NCBI GenBank assembly: GCA_964648335.1
Contig: CAZYLZ010000004.1
Span: 6,189-70,188 of the forward strand
Source of the DNA: an uncultured Candidatus Saccharibacteria bacterium
GTDB taxonomy: Bacteria > Patescibacteriota > Minisyncoccia > Phycocordibacterales > UBA2100
DNA: 64,000 nucleotides
Direction of reading: 5' to 3'
In this document: positions 37,102 to 62,104 of the stretch, in pieces
Position numbering within the stretch: the first letter of the stretch is position 1
How the letters are laid out: the number at the start of each line of letters is the position of its first letter
Program-made: the position numbers and the translations under genes
Notes under the pieces: generated by a model
The model's input: the letters and a program-made list of their open reading frames with translations, nothing else
What the model was told of the DNA's origin: nothing
Databases searched by the model: none

Positions 37102-37134
37102 AAAAGTCCCCGAATGGTCGGGGACTTTGCATTT
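37102..37134. terminator. Bidirectional rho-independent terminator.
   Basis: aaaagtccccga-atgg-tcggggacttt + GCATTT. Sits between convergent genes. Confidence 0.65.
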
Positions 37135-37315
37135 ATGGCAACCGCTTGCCTATGAAGAAAAGGAGCGCACCGACCATGCTGCCGAGGATCGAGAAAGTGA
37201 GCACGAGCGTCAACTTGCGTATATCGGTATAGCCATGGCTTTCGAGAAAGAGTGTGATTCCCCACAGAAATGCCAGTACGAACGTCATTATGAAGAGAGC
37301 TTTCCTGTTGGTCAT
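37133..37315 (-). CDS. Small membrane protein (60 aa, two predicted TM helices).
   Basis: MTNRKALFIMTFVLAFLWGITLFLESHGYTDIRKLTLVLTFSILGSMVGALLFFIGKRLP. Excellent RBS (aaaggagacagtctgATG). Confidence 0.5.
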   Translation of the reverse strand: MTNRKALFIMTFVLAFLWGITLFLESHGYTDIRKLTLVLTFSILGSMVGALLFFIGKRLP

Positions 37316-37411: not shown

Positions 37412-37475
37412 TACCACCCCTTTGCCGCAAGGGCGTTCTCTGCGGCCATCTGCTCGCCCACTTGCTTGGACCTCC
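37412..37475. repeat. Diverged direct duplicate (about 89% identity over about 64 nt) of the rnc 3' end (38350-38413). In-frame and ends with TAG.
   Basis: The 29-nt perfect core aagggcgttctctgcggccatctgctcg occurs at both sites. Minus-strand translation of the copy gives ...KQVGEQMAAENALAAKGW* versus rnc ...KQEAEQMAAENALSAKGW*. Confidence 0.8.
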
Positions 37476-37564
37476 TCTTCGTCTTTTTTCCTTTTTGCCA
37501 GATAAACCCTGTCTTTTTATCTCCTCATATTCACACCGTAAGCTCTTTCTCCATACATGTCCTT

Positions 37565-37598
37565 ATATCAAGACGACCGTTTCAATATAAGAAATCGG
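37565..37598. repeat. 34-bp quasi-palindrome downstream of PaaX-like gene 1 (tccttatatcaagacgaccgtttcaatataagaa). Same sequence family as 38222-38255.
   Basis: Central acgRccgt core flanked by inverted tccttata/tataagRa arms. About 80% identical to the copy upstream of the gene. Confidence 0.7.
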
Positions 37599-37638: not shown

Positions 37639-38220
37639 TCACGGCTTCGAAAGATTAAATCGCTTGCGAAGACGAGTATCGCCCTCGAGTTCTTCTACGA
37701 CCGCATACAATACCTCTCGACCGAGCACGAATTGGGTCTTGATGAGCGTAACGACGTCTTCACTGTCATAAGGATATACCCATACACTCCCCTGAAGCTG
37801 AACAAAGCCTACCGACGCAAGCATCGCGCGAAGCTGATTTCGTGCAGTGCGTCTTCGTTCAGGAACATCAAAAATGACCATCCTCCACTTTTGATCCCAC
37901 TTTTTAGGAACACTTGTCGACCGCGGCTTTTCGGAAAACTTGATTAAAAAACTTTCACCGAGCGAGGTTATGCGCGCATATTTTTTACCATTTTCCTCGT
38001 GCCATGCCACATATCCATGTGCCACAAGTCGCGCTAATGCTGCATTTGCTCGCCAAGCATACGCGGAGCGGTTTTGATTAGTGTACGTCAGCAACTGCAA
38101 GGCATTTGGTGCAACAACTGCGACGCCGAGTAATCCTCCCACCTTGAGTGCTGTCAGGACTGCGTGCTTGATATTCTGCTTACGGGCTCGTTTCTTGACT
38201 CGTTTTTCTATTTTACCCAT
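37639..38220 (-). CDS. PaaX-family transcriptional regulator-like protein, short form (N-terminal winged helix plus central PaaX/Cas2-like domain; no long C-terminal domain). Paralog of 60191..60754.
   Basis: WDQKWRMVIFDVPERRRTARNQLRAMLASVGFVQLQGSVWVYPYD matches the PaaX central region (WDGKW...GFG...). N-terminal wHTH ...LARLVAHGYVAWHEENGKKYARITSLGESFL. Confidence 0.6.
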   Translation of the reverse strand: MGKIEKRVKKRARKQNIKHAVLTALKVGGLLGVAVVAPNALQLLTYTNQNRSAYAWRANAALARLVAHGYVAWHEENGKKYARITSLGESFLIKFSEKPRSTSVPKKWDQKWRMVIFDVPERRRTARNQLRAMLASVGFVQLQGSVWVYPYDSEDVVTLIKTQFVLGREVLYAVVEELEGDTRLRKRFNLSKP

Positions 38221-38221
38221 A

Positions 38222-38255
38222 TCCTTATATTAACACGGCCGTCTATTTATAAGGA
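38222..38255. repeat. 34-bp quasi-palindrome immediately upstream of PaaX-like gene 1 (tccttatattaacacggccgtctatttataagga). Putative operator.
   Basis: Near-perfect dyad around a palindromic acggccgt core. Begins 2 bp upstream of the gene start. Confidence 0.7.
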
Positions 38256-38348: not shown

Positions 38349-39038
38349 TTACCAACCTTTTGCTGAAAGGGCGTTCTCTGCGGCCATCTGCTCGGCCTCT
38401 TGCTTGGACTTCCCTTCGCCCTTGGCGACCAAGGTCTGGCCTATGTAGGCTCCCGTTATGAACTTCTTGTCGTGGTCGGGTCCTGCCTGCGCCACGAGCT
38501 CGTACGACGGCGTGATGCCCTCTTTCTCTTGCGCGATCTCCTGGAAGCGGCTCTTAGCGTCTTGCCAGAGGCGTTTCGCAACCACCTCGTCGGTCTTATG
38601 GAACAGCTGCTTGGCGATAAACTGCTCTGCGGCAGCATAGCCTTGGTCCAGGTACAAAGCACCTATGAAGGCCTCGAAGGTGTTGGCCAGTATGTATTGG
38701 CGTGCGCGGCCGGTGTCTTTTGCCTCGCCCTTCGAGAGGAGCAAGAAGTCGTTCATGCCAAGATCGGTCGCAGCCTGCGATATAGAAACAGTATTGACGA
38801 GCGCTGCACGAAACGCTGTGAGCTCCCCTTCGGCTTTGTCGGGATACTTGCCGAACAAAAAATCGGTGACAGCAAGCTCCAAGACCGCGTCGCCCAAGAA
38901 CTCGAGACGCTCGTTATGTGCGATACCCGAGCGGTTCTCGTTTATAAACGAGCGATGTGTAAAGGCCTGCTTTAGCAGCTCTTTCTTGGCAAACGTAAAG
39001 CCGACACGTACCTCGAATGTAGAGAAATCTTTGTCCAT
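38349..39038 (-). CDS. rnc: Ribonuclease III.
   Basis: RNase III signature ERLEFLGDAVLELAVTDFLF; C-terminal dsRBD. Confidence 0.9.
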   Translation of the reverse strand: MDKDFSTFEVRVGFTFAKKELLKQAFTHRSFINENRSGIAHNERLEFLGDAVLELAVTDFLFGKYPDKAEGELTAFRAALVNTVSISQAATDLGMNDFLLLSKGEAKDTGRARQYILANTFEAFIGALYLDQGYAAAEQFIAKQLFHKTDEVVAKRLWQDAKSRFQEIAQEKEGITPSYELVAQAGPDHDKKFITGAYIGQTLVAKGEGKSKQEAEQMAAENALSAKGW

Positions 39039-46919: not shown

Positions 46920-48800
46920 CTAAGAACGGTTGATGATAAGCCGAGGCATACCATCGTTACCGGTAGAAAACTGCATGGTGTCGTGAGTTGTGATATCCGA
47001 GGTGACGATGACTTTCTCTGGGGCGGCAGTTGTGACAGGAGCCTCAGGAGTAATCGGTGCCTCTTCGTAAGCTGGCTCGTCGATGATGGTCTCGTCGAGG
47101 ATCATAGACTCGGGGTCGCTTGCGTGAGCAGATGCTCCCACGAGTCCCAAGACCGATCCTGCAAGGAGTCCGCGCTTGGCTACCACGAGGTAGCCTGCGA
47201 CGACCGAGAGCGATACAAGAGTGAACCAGTACATCGCGTTTCCGAACGGACCGAAGTCGATGCCGGTATACGGGATCTGCGAGAGCGATACGTACGGTGC
47301 ACCCGAGACGTTCACGTTGGTCGCACAGGTGGTCTGGCGTCCCGCGAAGTCTGCGATGGTGAGCACGTAGCTGCGCGATGCCTCTGGGCGTACTGCGAGC
47401 ACTCCCGAAGGGTTTACGTTACCCAAGCCGTCAGAGAGCCATGCACGTACGGCACCCGTCGAGTTCCAGGTAAGGTTTGCTGCAGCGCCGTTTGCAATAA
47501 CATTTGGCGTTGCCGAGATCGAGCATGCAAGGTTGCCAGGAACAGGGATTGGCGTAGGAACCGGTACTGGGATGTAGGTGCTGCCTACCACAGTCGAACA
47601 GGTGTTCGAGCGACCGTTGTTGTATACCGTGAGGGTATAGGTACGTGCGCCGTTGTTAGTACCTGGGTAGACGGTCGTGGTGCCCGCGGTCGAGACCGTT
47701 CCGACACCCGAGAGGTTTGCCGAGGTGGCGTTGTACGAGGTCCAGGTGACCGTCGCATAGCCGTTTGCGTTGATAGTAGAAGGGTTTGCAGAGATGGTGC
47801 AGGTAGGAAGCTGGACCGGCTGTGGCTGTGGAGCGACAACGGAAACCGTTGCTGCACACGAGCTCGTACCGCCTGGGCCATTAACCTGCATAGTGTAGGT
47901 GCGGTTGGTGGTGACGTTCGCTTCGGTTCGGGTACCCGAGCCTATTGCGACCTGGCCAAAGCCCGAGAGGTTTGCCTGGGTTGCATTAGTGGTCGTGTAG
48001 CCAATCGAGACGGTGCCGCCGTAGTTTACCCCCGTGACATGCAGCTGGCATGACGGAACTGGGTAGAACTGTGCCTGCACTATTGGCTGTGGGGTCACCT
48101 GGGTGACGCGAGCAACAGTAGTTACCGGAGTGACGGTGGTTACCGGGCGTGCAACCGAGGTTGCGTATCCAGTAGCGCCGTAGGATGCGCCACGAGCGCT
48201 GGTGTACGAGCCGTAGGCCTGTGCACCGTAGCTAGCTGCGCCATAGCTTGCCGATCCCATTGATACGCCGTAGCCGTCTTCGTTGACGTTAGTCCATGTG
48301 TCGGACTCCGCGACGTTAGTCCAAGTATCTGATTCATTGACGTTAGTCCACGTGTCGGACTCCGCAAGATTAGACCAGGTGTCAGACTCGGACTGGTTAT
48401 ACCAAGCATCGGTGTCACCGGTGTTTGTCCACACATCGGAAGCTGCGTTGTCGTACCATGCATCAGAAACGCCCAAATCAGCCCAGGTATCGGACGAGCC
48501 ATCGGTGTACCAAGAATCAGAGTCGCCGCCAGCATCAGTCCACGTATCAGAAGATCCGCTGTCGTACCAAGAATCCGATGAACCCGAATCATACCAACTG
48601 TCAGACGACCCACTGTCGTACCACGAATCGGACGAACCAGAGTCGTACCAACCGTCGGAATCTCCAAAACCGTCTGCGAATGCTATCTGCACCGTACCAA
48701 AAACACTGGCGAACATGATCGTCGCGACGAGTGTGGTCTGTGCTGTTGTTGCCAATGTCTTATACATACTATGCGTTGTTAAACCCTGTAATAGAGCCAT
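46920..48800 (-). CDS. Large secreted surface protein. Signal peptide, tandem SDSWYDSGS / ESDTWTNVN repeats, three Cys-bracketed domains of about 75 aa, ...YVSLSQIPYTG motif plus TM plus KRG, then a 90-aa acidic C-terminal tail.
   Basis: MYKTLATTAQTTLVATIMFASVFGTVQIAFADG signal (alternative start at 48767). Repeats CTISANPSTINANGYATVTWTSYNATSANLSGVGTV...C. C-terminal PYVSLSQIPYTGIDFGPFGNAMYWFTLVSLSVVAGYLVVAKRG. Confidence 0.7.
   Translation of the reverse strand: MALLQGLTTHSMYKTLATTAQTTLVATIMFASVFGTVQIAFADGFGDSDGWYDSGSSDSWYDSGSSDSWYDSGSSDSWYDSGSSDTWTDAGGDSDSWYTDGSSDTWADLGVSDAWYDNAASDVWTNTGDTDAWYNQSESDTWSNLAESDTWTNVNESDTWTNVAESDTWTNVNEDGYGVSMGSASYGAASYGAQAYGSYTSARGASYGATGYATSVARPVTTVTPVTTVARVTQVTPQPIVQAQFYPVPSCQLHVTGVNYGGTVSIGYTTTNATQANLSGFGQVAIGSGTRTEANVTTNRTYTMQVNGPGGTSSCAATVSVVAPQPQPVQLPTCTISANPSTINANGYATVTWTSYNATSANLSGVGTVSTAGTTTVYPGTNNGARTYTLTVYNNGRSNTCSTVVGSTYIPVPVPTPIPVPGNLACSISATPNVIANGAAANLTWNSTGAVRAWLSDGLGNVNPSGVLAVRPEASRSYVLTIADFAGRQTTCATNVNVSGAPYVSLSQIPYTGIDFGPFGNAMYWFTLVSLSVVAGYLVVAKRGLLAGSVLGLVGASAHASDPESMILDETIIDEPAYEEAPITPEAPVTTAAPEKVIVTSDITTHDTMQFSTGNDGMPRLIINRS
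48283..48665. repeat. Imperfect 27-bp tandem repeats encoding (S/E)D(S/T)W(Y/T)(D/N)xGx nonapeptide repeats.
   Basis: Top-strand units gttagtccatgtgtcggactccgcgac / gttagtccacgtgtcggactccgcaag etc. At least 5 SDSWYDSGS copies. Confidence 0.7.
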
Positions 48801-58866: not shown

Positions 58867-59331
58867 ATGAAGCGACATCACAGCGCACTCATTCTTCTCG
58901 CTGCGCTCATCATCGTCTTTGCGTACGTTCAGTACTCGATAAAGACGCGCTTTATCTCGACCGACACCGTCGACGTCGCGACCACCGAGGTCGTGACCAT
59001 CTGCGGCAAAGAGCTCGAAACCGATGTCGTGACGATAGACGGCGTCGACGTCGCACGCGAGCTGGGAGCGATCATGACCAGCGAATACGAGGCAGTGGCG
59101 AATAAAGATGCGACAAGCTGCTTCGTGATGCAGGCGTATCTCGATGGCACGCGGATACGCACCTCGGTAACCGAGGAGATTGGCATTGACTCACCACTCA
59201 AGGGTAGGCACCTGTACCGCATCCGCCTCGACGACACGCAGTTCTTGCTGGACCGCGCAACACGGCAAATCTACAGCGTAAACACGATGGACGGCAGCAC
59301 CCGCGATATCGTCGGCATCTTTGCCGACTAG
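58867..59331 (+). CDS. Membrane-anchored hypothetical protein (154 aa).
   Basis: N-terminal TM MKRHHSALILLAALIIVFAYV. Intact ORF. Confidence 0.45.
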   Translation: MKRHHSALILLAALIIVFAYVQYSIKTRFISTDTVDVATTEVVTICGKELETDVVTIDGVDVARELGAIMTSEYEAVANKDATSCFVMQAYLDGTRIRTSVTEEIGIDSPLKGRHLYRIRLDDTQFLLDRATRQIYSVNTMDGSTRDIVGIFAD

Positions 59332-60035
59332 AACGGCTGCACTACCCCTTTGTGATCGACGAATGCACCCGAAACCAGGGTGTCTTTTTTTGCCGTAAGC
59401 AGTGCAAAGATGTCGCGTGCAGCGTCTGTGGCAGCAATAGGCGCCGACGTGCCACCCATATCGGTAGCGACCCAGCCCGGGTGTATCAAGACCGATGTGA
59501 TGTCTTTGTTGCGTATGCCGAACGACGCGAATGCGTAGTTGAGTGCAGCTTTGCTCGCACCATACGCCCAATGGTCGGCATAGTATTGGTTGCCCTCTCC
59601 CACAGTAAGCGCAGACACCGATCCCATGATCGACGTGATAGAGGCGACGATCTTGTCGTTACCGGCATGAAGGTTTTCTAAGAGAGCATTGGCCAAAAAA
59701 GTGGGACCGATGGCATTGGTCTTGAATATGGTATCGACAGTGACGAAATCGCTAGTGATATCGTCGTCATCGACCGAGGTGCTGTCGTAGAGCCCAGCGT
59801 TGTTGATGAGGATGTCGAGACCGACTCCGGAAAGCGATGACGCGAGCGCTTGAATAGACTCTTGGCTCGTGACATCCAAAGGCACCACGATGGCGGACGC
59901 GTCTGCCACCAAGTCCTCGGGCATGCTGCCAGGGTCGCGCACCGCGGCGTACACCTGCCACCCTTCGCGCAAAAAGACCCGAGTAAGTTCGAGCCCCACC
60001 CCGCGCCCAGCCCCGGTTATGAGTACGGTTTTCAC
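59328..60035 (-). CDS. Short-chain dehydrogenase/reductase (SDR) family oxidoreductase; GTG start.
   Basis: TGAGRGVG cofactor-binding motif, NNAG motif, catalytic Yxxx K region (YGASKAALN). Confidence 0.8.
   Translation of the reverse strand: MKTVLITGAGRGVGLELTRVFLREGWQVYAAVRDPGSMPEDLVADASAIVVPLDVTSQESIQALASSLSGVGLDILINNAGLYDSTSVDDDDITSDFVTVDTIFKTNAIGPTFLANALLENLHAGNDKIVASITSIMGSVSALTVGEGNQYYADHWAYGASKAALNYAFASFGIRNKDITSVLIHPGWVATDMGGTSAPIAATDAARDIFALLTAKKDTLVSGAFVDHKGVVQPF
60005..60034. repeat. Native 5' end of the SDR gene (first 10 codons), duplicated in diverged form at 60979-61008.
   Basis: gcccagccccggttatgagtacggttttca versus gcccagtctcggtaatgagtacggttttca (27/30). The copy reads ATGAAAACCGTACTCATTACCGAGACTGGGC (MKTVLITETG) versus the native VKTVLITGAG. 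Confidence 0.75.
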
Positions 60036-60123
60036 AGAGTAATACTAACACCCAACATTCATCAGGGTTACCCTTGTCCGCACGTCGACCTCCATGATGA
60101 TCGCCCAAACTACATGCACCGAT

Positions 60124-60157
60124 AATGTCCTATAGGACATTATCGGTGCATTCAAAA
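60124..60157. repeat. Perfect 34-bp palindrome gcaccgataatgtcctataggacattatcggtgc, between PaaX-like gene 2 and the SDR gene. Putative operator.
   Basis: Exact reverse-complement symmetry. Same family as 60755-60786 and 60841-60874. Confidence 0.8.
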
Positions 60158-60190
60158 AATCGCAAAAAAATAATTGGTACCGCAGTATAC

Positions 60191-60754
60191 TTAACGAAGT
60201 GAGAAGTGTGACCTAAGATCGCGGTCGTTCTCGATCGATTCTACAACCATGTACACAAGATGTTTTCCTATCCCAAGTTCAGTTTTTAATAATGTAAGCA
60301 GATCCTCGCAGTCGTAGGGATGAATCCAGACGCTATCTTGTAAACGCAAGAAGCCGGCGAGCATCAAGATTTCTCGAAGACGAACTCGCAGTTTCCGCCG
60401 TTTCTCTGGTATATCGAACACAACCACACGCCATCGTTCGTCCCACAGACGTGCACGACGTATCGCAAAATCCTCGAATACAAATTGTGACATCCTTCGC
60501 TCACCAGCTCTTGTGAGCGAATAGCCCTTCTCAGACCGTATTACCAAGCCGTTTTCTACCAAACGCTCAAGCGATCGGCCAAGGCTCGCCTTATGTCGTT
60601 TTCCCGGCACCATGCCGAGCCTCTGCATGGCACCGAGGATGTTTGGCACTACTAAGGCCACCGCTAAGACTCCCGCGAGTTTTATCGCATTAAGCAAAAG
60701 CTTTTGCTCGGGCGACAACCTCTTCTTCCTACCTTGTTCCTCAACAGCTCCCAT
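60191..60754 (-). CDS. PaaX-family transcriptional regulator-like protein, short form. Paralog of 37639..38220.
   Basis: WDERWRVVVFDIPEKRRKLRVRLREILMLAGFLRLQDSVWIHPYDCEDLLTLLKT (PaaX central/Cas2-like motif). wHTH ...LERLVENGLVIRSEKGYSLTRAGERRM. Confidence 0.6.
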   Translation of the reverse strand: MGAVEEQGRKKRLSPEQKLLLNAIKLAGVLAVALVVPNILGAMQRLGMVPGKRHKASLGRSLERLVENGLVIRSEKGYSLTRAGERRMSQFVFEDFAIRRARLWDERWRVVVFDIPEKRRKLRVRLREILMLAGFLRLQDSVWIHPYDCEDLLTLLKTELGIGKHLVYMVVESIENDRDLRSHFSLR

Positions 60755-60786
60755 ACGCCGATACTAGCCTATAGGACTATATCGGT
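60755..60786. repeat. Degenerate copy of the 34-bp palindrome (cgccgatactagcctataggactatatcggtg), abutting the start and RBS region of PaaX-like gene 2.
   Basis: 26/32 identical to 60125-60156. Centred on tcctatagga. Confidence 0.6.
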
Positions 60787-60840
60787 GTAGTTGCGTTGCC
60801 ACGAGGATCATTGCGCGTAATTCTTCTGTCTTTTTGGCTT

Positions 60841-60874
60841 TTCTACCAATACACCGATAACATCCTATAGGATG
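60841..60874. repeat. Perfect 34-bp palindrome acaccgataacatcctataggatgttatcggtgt, a variant with the central tg/ca dinucleotides swapped.
   Basis: Exact dyad. Differs from 60124-60157 only at the inner NN positions (CA...TG versus TG...CA). Confidence 0.8.
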
Positions 60875-60978
60875 TTATCGGTGTATTTGGAAGCGGATAA
60901 TGCTAAAAAATGGGTGCTAGAGATTGACAGAGATGGAGGCTAGAGTATTTGATGCTATCATCTGCCACACTTCCAACC

Positions 60979-61008
60979 CTGCCCAGTCTCGGTAATGAGT
61001 ACGGTTTT
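60979..61008. repeat. Diverged duplicate of the SDR gene 5' end (pseudo-start ATGAAAACCGTACTCATTACC...).
   Basis: See 60005-60034. It lies 944 bp away, on the far side of the PaaX-like cassette. Confidence 0.75.
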
Positions 61009-61060
61009 CATCCTTTAGTGTAAACCTAATAACTCTAGCAGGCGAACAAATGAGTCGACT

Positions 61061-62104
61061 TTAAAAAGGAATATCATCAATACTTATGTCAGGAGGTCGG
61101 GTAATTTCTACAGGTGTAAGTACCATCGGGCGTGGTGGCGATTCAAGGCCCAGTATACGCTTGGCACGAGCAAGTACATGATCATACGTCATGATTGCGA
61201 GGTTATGGTACGAAGAATTTACAATTCGATAGGCTTCATTCTGTGAAGAAGTCCAGTCCGCTGATCGCCCAAAGACTAACACGCAGCGTGGTTTTACAGT
61301 CTTTACATATTCGATCCTTTCAAGAAATTTGACACTGTTTGCCTCGCGCTCAAGCTCATAAACATACCTATTTGCCTGTGTTATTGCTTTCGTTAAATCC
61401 GGCGATGGAATATCATTCCCATGATCCTGACTATTCGCCCAAAACGTGAGGCCACCTCCGGGCCGCTTTATCTCAACAACATCCACGAAGCCATCATAGG
61501 CCTGCATTAAATAGTCTGAGACATGCGCTGTATCAATCGATCTCTCGTCCAGTATCTTTACAAACTCTGTTCCTAATACCCAATGATTCTCTTTAAACCA
61601 TTTCTGCCAACTACTTTCAGTTAAATCTTCACCCAGCATGCGCTCGAAGTCTTCCAATGCAGAAACCCTCTTTTGCTGGTCTAGACTGAGTAAGATATCT
61701 CTCGGTAAAATTGAGTTTTCATTTATGAACTTCAGAACACTTGTCTTGTCAGGATTCTCGAAGAGTGCCTTGATATGCTCAATATCGCCGCCATCAAATT
61801 TCTGATCAAGAGGGATATATTTTTTTACCCCATCTATTAGAGGAGCATAATTCTCACCTATAAATTTAACTAAAGATAAAAATTCTTCATTATCTAATGT
61901 GAGCTCGCTCTTCGGAACAGTAACCTCTGGCGATTCGGCCCCAACCTCATTCTTATAACGACCAATCTTGAGATTTATGTCATCAGTTTTTCCGGAATTA
62001 TGCGGAACCCTCCAAAAAGAGGCTCGTGTGACAACGGTTTTTTTCCTTTTTAGAACAGTGTGCAATGAGCCTATGCCTCCCTTACTTTGTCGCACCTCTT
62101 TCAT
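61061..62104 (-). CDS. PD-(D/E)xK nuclease-fold protein resembling the Shedu/DUF4263 defense family. The gene is AT-rich (about 42% GC versus about 58% for flanks).
   Basis: ESSWQKWFKENHWVLGTEFVKILDERSIDTAHVSDYLMQAYDGFVDVVEIKRPG has a D...(D)hhEhK nuclease motif preceded by a W..F..N.W.LG segment. Visibly lower GC than neighbours. Confidence 0.5.
   Translation of the reverse strand: MKEVRQSKGGIGSLHTVLKRKKTVVTRASFWRVPHNSGKTDDINLKIGRYKNEVGAESPEVTVPKSELTLDNEEFLSLVKFIGENYAPLIDGVKKYIPLDQKFDGGDIEHIKALFENPDKTSVLKFINENSILPRDILLSLDQQKRVSALEDFERMLGEDLTESSWQKWFKENHWVLGTEFVKILDERSIDTAHVSDYLMQAYDGFVDVVEIKRPGGGLTFWANSQDHGNDIPSPDLTKAITQANRYVYELEREANSVKFLERIEYVKTVKPRCVLVFGRSADWTSSQNEAYRIVNSSYHNLAIMTYDHVLARAKRILGLESPPRPMVLTPVEITRPPDISIDDIPF

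What the first reader, a model, noticed from the sequence alone, without database searches (positions are those of the whole stretch)
60124..60874. Perfect 34-bp palindromes (caccgataaNNtcctataggaNNttatcggtg) flank a PaaX-like regulator, with a central-dinucleotide swap
There are two exact 34-bp palindromes at 60124-60157 and 60841-60874, and a degenerate third copy over the regulator's own start region at 60755-60786. The two perfect copies differ only by exchanging the inner TG/CA dinucleotides, which keeps the symmetry. This is the behaviour expected of a dimeric wHTH repressor operator. One copy sits in the SDR promoter region and one overlaps the regulator's RBS, which suggests autoregulation and control of the SDR gene. 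The paralog at 37639..38220 has its own, different quasi-palindrome family (tccttatat...acgRccgt...tataagga) on both flanks. The two paralogs therefore look like co-evolved regulator/operator pairs.
Basis: partly seen in the sequence, partly recalled or inferred. Interest (0 to 1): 0.55.

Follow-up and report, generated by a model that had tools for sequence, protein, structure and literature searches.

The report
Self-flanked mini-PaaX (wHTH–Cas2-like) autoregulatory cassette
The palindromes are real and are most likely the binding sites of the small DNA-binding protein encoded between them; this gene-plus-sites unit recurs widely in Patescibacteria, appears to regulate mainly itself, and looks like an inserted block rather than a switch for the neighbouring dehydrogenase gene.

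Summary
There are perfect palindromes at 60114-60151 (38 bp) and 60848-60887 (40 bp). A degenerate copy at 60754-60789 ends on the A of the regulator's ATG. The window holds no other copies.

The protein (60191..60754, minus strand) is a 187-aa "mini-PaaX": a winged-helix domain plus a Cas2-like domain, without the PaaX ligand domain. In 80 Patescibacteria loci the same layout recurs. A ~36-bp site, TACR…C-NNNN-G…YGTA, ends on the start codon and carries a TATAAT-like hexamer, which fits a leaderless promoter inside the operator. A second copy lies 0-63 bp after the stop codon. Sites match within a locus and differ between loci. This supports autoregulation and locus-specific protein/site pairs.

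Control of the SDR gene is not supported. Neighbours are unrelated housekeeping genes in either orientation, and pal1 is centred about 98 bp upstream of the SDR start.

Two further results are new. Both window cassettes are bracketed by duplicated ends of host genes (the SDR 5' end and the rnc 3' end). The gene is also AT-richer than its flanks across the 82 loci compared. The unit therefore looks like an inserted, self-contained cassette, although there is no sign of recent transposition. The role of the downstream copy and of the Cas2-like domain remains open.

The parts
60114..60151 (.). pal1: perfect 38-bp palindrome (ATGCACCGATAATGTCCTA|TAGGACATTATCGGTGCAT). It starts 37 bp after the regulator's stop codon and ends 79 bp upstream of the SDR start. 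This is the post-stop copy typical of the family.
   Evidence: (I5)
60191..60754 (-). Regulator gene, 187 aa: N-terminal predicted winged helix plus a Cas2-like (PaaX_M) domain with the FDIPE and QDSVW motifs. It has no PaaX C-terminal domain.
60754..60789 (-). pal3: degenerate 36-bp copy (TACACCGATATAGTCCTATAGGCTAGTATCGGCGTA on the gene strand). Its last base is the A of the ATG. Proposed primary operator overlapping a leaderless promoter.
   Evidence: (I6)
60761..60766 (-). TAGTAT, a -10-like hexamer at -12..-7 from the A of the ATG, inside pal3.
   Evidence: Read from the sequence. Family-wide enrichment of TATAAT at this position: 23/54 upstream copies against 6/54 downstream copies.
60848..60887 (.). 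pal2: perfect 40-bp palindrome (AATACACCGATAACATCCTA|TAGGATGTTATCGGTGTATT), 94-133 bp upstream of the ATG. An extra upstream copy of this kind is seen in only a few family members.
   Evidence: (I4)
60005..60034 (-). Direct-repeat copy A: the true 5' end of the SDR gene (GTG start at 60035; MKTVLITGAGRG, carrying the TGxxxGxG motif).
   Evidence: D2; D6
60981..61012 (-). Direct-repeat copy B: a decayed duplicate of the SDR 5' end (ATG at 61012; MKTVLITETGQGWKCGR*), 90% identical over 30 nt. It lies on the far side of the cassette, 976 bp from copy A.
   Evidence: D2; D6
59328..60035 (-). SDR (short-chain dehydrogenase) gene downstream of the cassette. It has its own TGTTAGTAT extended -10-like motif 6 nt before the GTG.
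37639..38220 (-). Paralogous cassette gene (193 aa, 38% identical to the first).
38222..38255 (.). Paralogue's promoter-proximal site (TCCTTATATTAACACGGCCGTCTATTTATAAGGA), which ends 1 nt before the ATG.
37560..37593 (.). Paralogue's post-stop site (2 mismatches to the pattern), 45 bp after the stop codon.
38350..38413 (-). True 3' end of rnc: direct-repeat copy bracketing the paralogous cassette.
   Evidence: D1; D4
37412..37475 (-). Decayed duplicate of the rnc 3' end (89% over 64 nt; frame and stop codon kept), 938 bp from the true copy.
   Evidence: D1; D4

Best explanation
The three palindromes are the cognate binding sites of the protein encoded between them. This protein is a 187-aa mini-PaaX, with a winged-helix DNA-binding domain and a Cas2-like domain that probably acts as the dimerisation domain.

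The degenerate copy (pal3) overlaps the gene's own promoter. Its -10 hexamer, TAGTAT, lies 6 nt before the ATG, so the transcript is probably leaderless. Binding at pal3 would exclude RNA polymerase and give negative autoregulation. pal3 is degenerate because it also has to serve as a promoter.

The two perfect copies are high-affinity auxiliary sites that bracket the gene, one 96 bp upstream and one just after the stop codon. They probably raise occupancy at pal3 through cooperative binding or looping. They may also block transcription entering or leaving the unit.

The whole unit (site, gene, site) is a self-contained cassette. It recurs across Patescibacteria with locus-specific site sequences, and here it was inserted into the 5' end of the SDR gene.

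Shown: the sequence architecture and its conservation. Inferred: binding, repression, looping and dimerisation.
For: 1. Only three copies exist in 64 kb, all at the gene, with zero expected by chance. The paralogue has its own two sites and no others in the window.
2. The protein is PaaX-like: Pfam PaaX_M 4.7e-20; PDB profile hits to Rv0674 and PaaX; Foldseek best matches PaaX 8a39 and Rv0674 3kfw, then Cas2 proteins.
3. PaaX is known to bind TGATTC-N27-GAATCA (39 bp) and to repress its own promoter by steric hindrance (PMC9493321). The 36-40-bp sites here have the same geometry, with conserved outer TACR/YGTA.
4. In 80 loci from other Patescibacteria genomes, the site ends exactly on the A of the ATG in the majority. 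Same-locus upstream and downstream copies match at a median of 28/36 against 18/36 across loci, and 45/80 exceed the 99th percentile of cross-locus pairs.
5. Upstream copies carry a hexamer matching TATAAT at 5 or 6 of 6 positions, at site position 24 (23/54) or position 6 (14/54). Downstream copies show 6/54 at each position.
6. The window is poor in Shine-Dalgarno motifs (5/44 genes), and TAnnnT peaks 6 nt before start codons.
7. Site similarity co-varies with protein similarity (Mantel rho 0.42, 0/500).
8. A distant subfamily (26-31% identity) shows the same layout with different palindromes.
9. The neighbours have no common function (110 Pfam families among the 126 scanned).
Against: - No binding data exist. 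The N-terminal domain model has low confidence (pLDDT 42-70).
- Site/protein covariation is no stronger for the winged-helix region than for the Cas2-like domain, so it may simply reflect shared ancestry.
- An autoregulatory operator needs only one site. The conserved post-stop copy, usually in direct register with the promoter copy (20 direct against 5 inverted), is not predicted by simple autorepression.
- Perfect symmetry extends to 50-54 bp in some loci, longer than a typical dimer footprint.
- The Cas2 acidic motif (D114 in FDIPE) is invariant. This suggests a function beyond dimerisation.
Confidence: 0.6

Rival explanations
1. One reading: the protein is a local repressor that controls the SDR gene through pal1 as well as controlling itself.
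For: pal1 lies between the regulator and the co-directional SDR gene, 79 bp upstream of its start. A bound protein could block read-through from the regulator gene into the SDR gene. The same arrangement is fixed in all five population contigs recovered.
Against: The post-stop copy is a cassette feature whatever lies downstream. Where paired sites are present, the downstream gene is convergent in 38 of 54 loci. When it is co-directional, the distance from site to start ranges from 18 to 390 bp with no fixed register. The 126 neighbours scanned match 110 Pfam families. The SDR gene has its own extended -10-like motif (TGTTAGTAT) 6 nt before the GTG, about 60 bp downstream of pal1, so pal1 does not overlap it. 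The SDR 5' end was duplicated by the insertion, which suggests the adjacency is an accident of where the cassette landed.
Confidence: 0.2
2. The palindromes are the ends or recombination sites of a cassette that is, or once was, mobile. The wHTH-Cas2-like protein recognises them to direct insertion or excision. Autoregulation is a secondary effect.
For: - Both window cassettes are bracketed by duplicated host-gene ends. These are the only dispersed direct repeats less than 2 kb apart in the window apart from repeats inside coding sequence.
- Such outer repeats occur in 8/81 loci against 3/233 controls.
- In L065, L027 and L007, all 5, 4 and 2 differences between the repeat copies fall in a single codon phase.
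- The two site copies are mostly direct repeats.
- The gene is AT-richer than its flanks in 88% of loci (mean -4.7% GC, p=1.6e-13).
- The rnc-smc spacer is empty in several relatives and occupied by a distant family member in four others.
- There are several diverged copies per genome.
- The Cas2 motifs are retained (TIGR01573 28.2 bits, above the 24.5 cut-off).
Against: - No transposase or integrase is present, and there were no hits in viral contigs.
- Paralogues within a genome are only 40-70% identical; none are near-identical.
- Identical proteins P0094 and P0003 sit in the same context in all 23-24 contigs read.
- Outer repeat lengths vary from about 14 to 111 nt, so they do not reflect a fixed staggered cut.
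- Empty rnc-smc sites contain no solo palindrome.
- Cas2 alone has no known integrase activity (established knowledge).
Confidence: 0.12
3. The perfect palindromes act mainly at the RNA level, as long 3' or 5' hairpins that terminate, process (for example as RNase III substrates) or stabilise transcripts. Protein binding is not their main role.
For: pal1 folds into an uninterrupted 17-bp RNA stem. The 99-nt 3' region that contains it has a minimum free energy of -33.8 kcal/mol, which also includes two other small helices. Symmetric double changes between pal1 and pal2 keep perfect pairing. Ten of 54 post-stop copies are perfect over 16+16 nt, against 2 of 54 promoter copies.
Against: There is no U-tract: T4 or longer follows the site in 9/54 loci against 7/54 in a control window, and the scanner calls no terminator at any palindrome. 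Across the family the two arms of the post-stop copy are less alike (4.35 mismatches per 16 nt) than the equivalent arms of the two copies (2.72). The constraint is therefore on sequence shared with the promoter copy, not on pairing. Outer TAC/GTA and central C…G are conserved as sequence. A hairpin role does not explain why the copy matches the promoter site. Rfam gives no match.
Confidence: 0.08
4. The palindromes are REP-like or MITE-like dispersed repeats, or chance matches, unrelated to the gene.
For: None found.
Against: There are only three copies in 64 kb, all at the gene, with zero expected. The only matches among the 185 loci fetched by then are in contigs of the same population. The architecture is conserved with locus-specific sequences in 80 other genomes.
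Confidence: 0.01

Closest known systems
PaaX, the phenylacetyl-CoA-responsive repressor of E. coli and Pseudomonas (PDB 8a39; TIGR02277), and the PaaX-like Rv0674 (PDB 3kfw)
   Same: An N-terminal winged helix followed by a Cas2-like central domain (PF20803). The operator is a long palindrome with widely spaced half-sites (PaaX: TGATTC-N27-GAATCA, 39 bp; here 36-40 bp with conserved ends). It represses its own promoter by occlusion (PMC9493321).
   Different: The protein is 187 aa and ends after the Cas2-like domain, so it lacks the C-terminal ligand-binding domain. It scores 34.5 bits against the 264.55 cut-off of the PaaX equivalog model. There are no paa genes nearby. It keeps Cas2-type motifs (FDIPE, QDSVW); at the position of its FDIPE aspartate the aligned PaaX-like Rv0674 has no aspartate. 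A second site copy follows the stop codon. There are several diverged copies per genome, each with its own site.
Cas2 (CRISPR adaptation protein; TIGR01573, PF09827)
   Same: The C-terminal domain matches the Cas2 model above its cut-off (28.2 against 24.5 bits) and aligns structurally with many Cas2 structures. The beta1 aspartate is invariant. The gene is bracketed by ~36-bp palindromic repeats, mostly in direct orientation, which formally recalls a repeat-spacer-repeat unit.
   Different: It is fused to a DNA-binding domain. The window holds no cas1 hit among the proteins scanned and no CRISPR array, and none appeared among 126 neighbours. The repeats are ~600 bp apart with the gene between them. 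The resemblance to a CRISPR unit is formal only.
Controller (C) proteins of restriction-modification systems with C-box operators
   Same: A small dimeric HTH protein binds palindromic boxes placed immediately upstream of its own start codon, on a leaderless transcript, forming an autoregulatory loop. Specificity classes of protein and box co-vary (from my own knowledge, not tested here).
   Different: The fold is different (Xre-type HTH). C proteins control a downstream endonuclease gene, whereas no partner gene exists here. C-box systems have no post-stop copy.
Auxiliary-operator and looping systems (lac O1/O2/O3, gal OE/OI) and B. subtilis RTP with the Ter sites next to rtp
   Same: A weaker operator constrained by promoter sequence is combined with stronger, more symmetric sites nearby, including sites beyond the promoter. 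The RTP example is a winged-helix dimer whose sites lie beside its own gene and autoregulate it (from my own knowledge).
   Different: Looping and fork arrest are both untested here. The site spacing (~600-735 bp) brackets the entire gene.

Membership tests
PaaX family proper (TIGR02277 equivalog) | Whole-protein score above the curated cut-off | tested here: not met
   34.5 bits against a cut-off of 264.55; the paralogue scores 37.2.
PaaX family proper | Central Cas2-like domain (PF20803 PaaX_M) | tested here: met
   E = 4.7e-20 and 1.4e-21, 72-77 bits against a cut-off of 24.
PaaX family proper | C-terminal PaaX_C ligand (phenylacetyl-CoA) domain | tested here: not met
   The protein ends at residue 187, about 10 residues after the Cas2-like domain. 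There is no Pfam hit, and all family members are ~190 aa.
PaaX family proper | N-terminal winged-helix DNA-binding domain | tested here: inconclusive
   No PF07848 hit. Weak HVO_A0261_N hit (23.6 bits, below the cut-off of 35). The AF2 model shows helix-helix-helix-hairpin topology but with pLDDT 42-70. The PDB profile alignment to PaaX and Rv0674 covers this region.
PaaX family proper | Linkage to paa catabolic genes | tested here: not met
   Neighbours are pheT, a Shedu gene and an SDR gene here, and unrelated housekeeping genes elsewhere.
PaaX-type operator | Long palindrome with conserved outer half-sites ~27-28 bp apart, overlapping the regulator's own promoter | tested here: met
   The site logo is TACR…YGTA, 36 bp, ending on the ATG with an internal -10 hexamer. 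Compare TGATTC-N27-GAATCA. Binding itself cannot be tested with these tools.
Cas2 (CRISPR-associated) | Cas2 sequence model and fold | tested here: met
   TIGR01573 28.2 bits, above the cut-off of 24.5, though only model positions 2-45 of 96 align. Foldseek matches Cas2 structures with TM-scores up to 0.67 normalised to the target. D114 is invariant.
Cas2 (CRISPR-associated) | Genomic association with cas1 and a CRISPR array | tested here: not met
   No array-like repeats in the window. No Cas families among the 25 most frequent families listed for 126 neighbours. No Rfam CRISPR hits.
REP / MITE-like dispersed repeats | Many dispersed copies unlinked to a particular gene | tested here: not met
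   Three copies, all at the gene. Only 64 kb of the genome could be examined.
Insertion sequence / transposon | Encoded transposase, and near-identical copies in different contexts | tested here: not met
   No transposase domain. Paralogues are 40-70% identical. Identical proteins occupy a single context in 23-24 contigs.
Insertion sequence / transposon | Terminal repeats plus a target-site duplication of fixed length | tested here: inconclusive
   Flanking palindromic repeats are present. Outer duplications are present in both window cassettes and in ~10% of loci, but range from ~14 to 111 nt.
Intrinsic terminator | GC-rich hairpin followed by a U-tract | tested here: not met
   No terminator is called at any palindrome. 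T-runs are no more frequent than in a control window.

The most novel reading that the evidence does not exclude
The unit of wHTH-Cas2 gene plus two direct copies of a ~36-bp palindromic repeat may be a previously undescribed kind of selfish, integrating cassette specific to Patescibacteria. In this reading the Cas2-like protein recognises its own repeats to promote insertion, excision or maintenance, which produces the duplicated host-gene ends seen here. If so, it could be an evolutionary relative of the Cas2-plus-repeat part of CRISPR adaptation modules. In that case the operator function is only one aspect of the element.
Probability: 0.1. Interest if true: 0.85.

Novelty: new variant of a known kind. 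Interest (0 to 1): 0.55.

Why it matters
Patescibacteria (CPR) have tiny genomes and few recognisable regulators, yet they carry several diverged copies of this cassette. The family comprises at least 697 clusters at 50% identity with E≤1e-30, and 3,820 with E≤1e-10. Five literature searches on PaaX, Cas2 and CPR terms returned nothing that describes it.

The comparative data give a ready-made set of natural protein/site specificity pairs. They also give a clear example of an operator that contains a leaderless promoter. These are predictions that could be tested directly by heterologous expression.

Three features remain unexplained: the retained Cas2 catalytic-type motif, the obligatory second site after the stop codon, and the duplicated host-gene ends. 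If these reflect nuclease or integration activity, the family would bear on the origin of Cas2 and its repeats. If not, it is an unusually self-contained autoregulator whose cellular role still needs explaining.

Tried and rejected
- REP-like or chance repeats: rejected.
- Intrinsic terminator: rejected. There is no U-tract and the scanner makes no call.
- Known RNA family: none. Rfam gave 0 hits in the whole window.
- Phage or viral origin: no relatives in viral contigs.
- Defence-system component: PADLOC returns only weak Cas2 model hits for the regulators. The adjacent Shedu gene is not a conserved partner.
- Recent transposition: rejected.
- Population polymorphism at the W1 locus: all five contigs carrying the identical SDR gene show the same SDR-proximal arrangement; the four longer ones span Shedu-regulator-SDR and the shortest starts within the regulator gene, so no empty site was found. 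The SDR gene has no close orthologue (next best 53% identity).
- Empty site for the rnc cassette of this genome: not found. Synteny downstream of rnc differs in relatives, which have rnc-smc. The small membrane protein at 37133..37315 has no homologue in those loci.
- Remote extra sites in L001, L028 and L062: I looked for decayed gene copies beside them. There was no significant similarity.
- Mapping specificity to the winged-helix region by partial Mantel test: not specific. The Cas2-like region correlates at least as well.
- Literature: no paper holds both PaaX and Cas2, or both PaaX and Patescibacteria. Searches for Cas2-like with winged helix, and for Cas2 with Candidate Phyla Radiation and HTH, returned only unrelated papers.
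Full report
**1. Observation**

The motif CACCGATAANNTCCTATAGGANNTTATCGGTG occurs exactly twice in the window, at 60117-60148 and 60852-60883. None was found in 100 dinucleotide-preserving shuffles. Read outwards, the perfect palindromes span 60114-60151 (38 bp) and 60848-60887 (40 bp).

A looser pattern, CCGATA-N4-CCTATAGG-N4-TATCGG, finds a third, degenerate copy at 60758-60785. Its full extent is 60754-60789, and its last base is the A of the ATG of the ORF at 60191..60754 (minus strand). A scan for any long palindrome in the window finds only these and a handful of A-run/T-run terminator-like hairpins.

The two perfect copies differ at three positions per arm: TGC against TAC at the outer end, and TG against CA further in. 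Every difference is mirrored, so both remain perfect.

The paralogue at 37639..38220 (38% identical) has its own pair of sites at 38222-38255 and 37560-37593, and no other copies in the window.

**2. The protein**

Pfam gives PaaX_M, the "PaaX central Cas2-like domain", for both paralogues (4.7e-20 and 1.4e-21). There is a weak winged-helix hit and a weak Cas2 hit, and no PaaX C-terminal domain.

NCBIfam gives 34.5 bits for the PaaX equivalog against a cut-off of 264.55. The cas2 model scores 28.2 bits, above its cut-off of 24.5, over its first half only.

A profile built from 99 homologues finds Rv0674 (3kfw) and E. coli PaaX (8a39) as the closest solved structures. The AlphaFold model is confident for the Cas2-like domain (pLDDT above 90) and poor for the N-terminal part (42-70). 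Foldseek ranks PaaX and Rv0674 first, followed by many Cas2 structures.

Family-wide invariant residues include D114 in FDIPE and S141/W143 in QDSVW, which correspond to the hallmark Cas2 motifs.

The protein is therefore a mini-PaaX, a winged helix plus a Cas2-like domain. It is not an orthologue of PaaX.

**3. Family and architecture**

An exhaustive profile search found 697 clusters at 50% identity with E≤1e-30 and 3,820 with E≤1e-10. Genomes carry several copies that are only 40-70% identical to one another.

I analysed 80 loci, and the layout recurs in them:
- A ~36-bp quasi-palindrome ends exactly on the A of the ATG.
- A second copy starts 0-63 bp after the stop codon (one overlaps the stop by 8 bp).
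- The logo is T-A-C-R-Y-T-A-W, then about 7 variable positions, then C-(4 variable)-G, then the mirror image ending Y-G-T-A.
- Within a locus the two copies match at a median of 28/36 positions, against 18/36 across loci. Forty-five of 80 loci exceed the 99th percentile of cross-locus pairs.
- Site similarity tracks protein similarity (Mantel rho 0.42, 0/500 permutations). This is no stronger for the winged-helix region than for the Cas2-like region.
- A distant subfamily (26-31% identity) found next to rnc in other metagenomes has the same layout with quite different 36-44-bp perfect palindromes, one of which overlaps the ATG.

**4. Promoter inside the operator**

Upstream copies carry a hexamer matching TATAAT at 5 or 6 of 6 positions. 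It sits at site position 24, which is -12..-7 from the A of the ATG, in 23/54 loci, and at position 6 in 14/54. The downstream copies show 6/54 at each position.

In this window the hexamer is TAGTAT at 60761-60766. In the paralogue it is TAATAT.

The window as a whole is poor in Shine-Dalgarno motifs (5 of 44 long ORFs). TAnnnT hexamers peak exactly 6 nt before start codons.

The simplest reading is a leaderless transcript whose core promoter lies inside the binding site. A bound protein would then exclude RNA polymerase. The degeneracy of pal3 relative to pal1 and pal2 is what one expects when a site must also serve as a promoter.

E. coli PaaX binds TGATTC-N27-GAATCA (39 bp) and represses its own Px promoter by steric hindrance (PMC9493321). 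The geometry here is the same.

One structural inference cannot be tested with these tools. A Cas2-like dimer may span the centre of the site, with the two winged helices reaching the outer TACR/YGTA.

**5. What the perfect copies are for**

The post-stop copy is a family-wide feature and belongs to the cassette, not to the neighbouring gene. The evidence:
- The 126 neighbours scanned match 110 Pfam families, including aminoacyl-tRNA synthetases, PGK, Obg, RecJ, RNase H and ribosomal protein S7.
- Across all loci the downstream gene is convergent in 50 and co-directional in 30. Where paired sites are present the counts are 38 and 16.
- When the downstream gene is co-directional, the distance from the site to the next start ranges from 18 to 390 bp.

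In this window pal1 is centred about 98 bp upstream of the SDR start. The SDR gene has its own TGTTAGTAT motif 6 nt before the GTG. Direct control of the SDR gene is therefore not supported, although a block to read-through remains possible.

The copies are not intrinsic terminators.

Across the family, equivalent arms of the two copies are more alike (2.72 mismatches per 16 nt) than the two arms within one copy (4.35). On asymmetric positions the copies are in direct register in 20 loci and inverted in 5. The constraint is therefore on shared sequence and not on hairpin pairing.

My preferred reading is that these are high-affinity auxiliary operators acting cooperatively with the promoter site, perhaps with an insulating role. 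This step is inferred.

A few loci have further copies up to 4 kb away, so small regulons cannot be excluded.

**6. The cassettes look inserted**

- Direct repeats bracket both cassettes. The segment 60005-60034, which is the true SDR 5' end starting at the start codon, is repeated at 60981-61010 (90% identity). That copy is a decayed remnant, MKTVLITETGQGWKCGR*, which has lost the glycine motif.
- The last 64 nt of rnc, ending at the stop codon, are repeated at 37412-37475 (89% identity, frame and stop kept) beyond the paralogue.
- Within 2 kb of each other, these are the only dispersed direct repeats in the window apart from repeats inside coding sequence.
- The rnc remnant and the true copy are each other's closest relatives (57/66; the best other lineage scores 52/66). 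This points to a duplication within this lineage.
- Similar outer repeats occur in 8/81 loci against 3/233 controls. In L065, L027 and L007, all 5, 4 and 2 differences between the two copies fall in a single codon phase. I took this to be the third position, but did not check it against the reading frame.
- Cassette genes are AT-richer than their flanks in 88% of loci (mean -4.7% GC, p=1.6e-13).
- Here the cassette lies with a Shedu gene (SduA, 1.8e-137) in a low-GC stretch between pheT and the SDR gene.
- In relatives, the rnc-smc spacer ranges from overlapping genes, through 90-126 nt, to ~400-700 nt and ~1.5 kb of other sequence. In four loci it is filled by a distant family member together with both its palindromes. 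The empty spacers hold no solo palindrome.

Several results argue against active mobility. There is no transposase. There are no viral hits. There are no near-identical paralogues. Two proteins seen on 23-24 contigs each always sit in the same context. The outer-repeat lengths vary from ~14 to 111 nt.

I conclude that these are old, self-contained insertions acquired by some recombinational route. A site-directed mechanism is not excluded.

**7. Comparison and novelty**

The cassette works most like PaaX autorepression, and like C-protein/C-box circuits on leaderless transcripts. It fails membership of PaaX proper because it lacks the ligand domain, scores below the cut-off and has no paa genes nearby. 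It fails membership of CRISPR Cas2 because there is no cas1 and no array.

Five literature searches on PaaX, Cas2 and CPR terms found no description of this family.

I rate it a new variant of a known kind. The operator reading is ordinary. The family-wide gene-plus-two-sites cassette, the promoter inside the operator, the retained Cas2 motifs and the duplicated host-gene ends are not.

Noticed in passing
window 61061-62104 (-), with low GC across 60050-62100: A Shedu defence gene (SduA; PADLOC 1.8e-137, Pfam SduA_C 2.2e-22) lies directly upstream of the cassette. GC there is 0.36-0.45, against ~0.55 in the rest of the window. This looks like a small acquired island between pheT and the SDR gene.
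   Followed up: partly
window 60005-60034 / 60981-61010 and 37412-37475 / 38350-38413: Both cassettes are bracketed by imperfect direct repeats that are duplicated ends of the adjacent host genes: the SDR 5' end from its start codon, and the rnc 3' end up to its stop codon. The mechanism that generates them is unknown.
   Followed up: partly
L083, L084, L086, L092 against L085, L093, L098, L099 (rnc-smc spacer): In relatives the rnc-smc intergenic region is a variable spot. It ranges from overlapping genes to 90-126 nt, ~400-700 nt containing other sequence, ~1.5 kb in L082, or a distant wHTH-Cas2 cassette on the opposite strand with its own 36-44-bp perfect palindromes.
   Followed up: partly
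whole window (44 long ORFs): Shine-Dalgarno-like motifs are rare (5/44). TAnnnT hexamers peak exactly 6 nt before start codons, for example TATACT before 58867 and TAGAAT before 29422 (-). The smc genes of relatives have TGATACAAT 8-11 nt before the ATG. Leaderless expression may be common in this lineage.
   Followed up: partly
L001:2346-2381, L028:1278-1313, L062:91-126: Extra copies of the locus-specific site lie 1.6-3.9 kb from the cassette. In L001 and L028 the copy is followed directly by ATGGG, as at the cassette start. No recognisable family gene lies beside them.
   Followed up: partly
window 37133-37315 (-): A 60-aa hydrophobic ORF (MTNRKALFIMTFVLAFLWGITLF…) lies between the rnc remnant and a terminator-like hairpin. 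It has no homologue in the 80 rnc loci of relatives.
   Followed up: partly
window 5881-6095 and 48279-48659: Tandem, degenerate coding repeats with periods of 12-18 nt and 27 nt lie inside long ORFs, which suggests repetitive surface or low-complexity proteins.
   Followed up: no
L161 (JGI Ga0490005_002210, 7634 bp): This contig is a mirror image of itself: pheT-Shedu-regulator-SDR is followed by the same genes inverted. It is most likely an assembly artefact.
   Followed up: no
whole window: Rfam at gathering thresholds gives no hit in 64 kb, so no RNA family reached its gathering score.
   Followed up: no
L001-L080 neighbours: Class II aminoacyl-tRNA synthetase genes (tRNA-synt_2b plus HGTP_anticodon) are the most frequent neighbours of the cassette, at 7 of 126. 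This could be chance or a preferred location.
   Followed up: no
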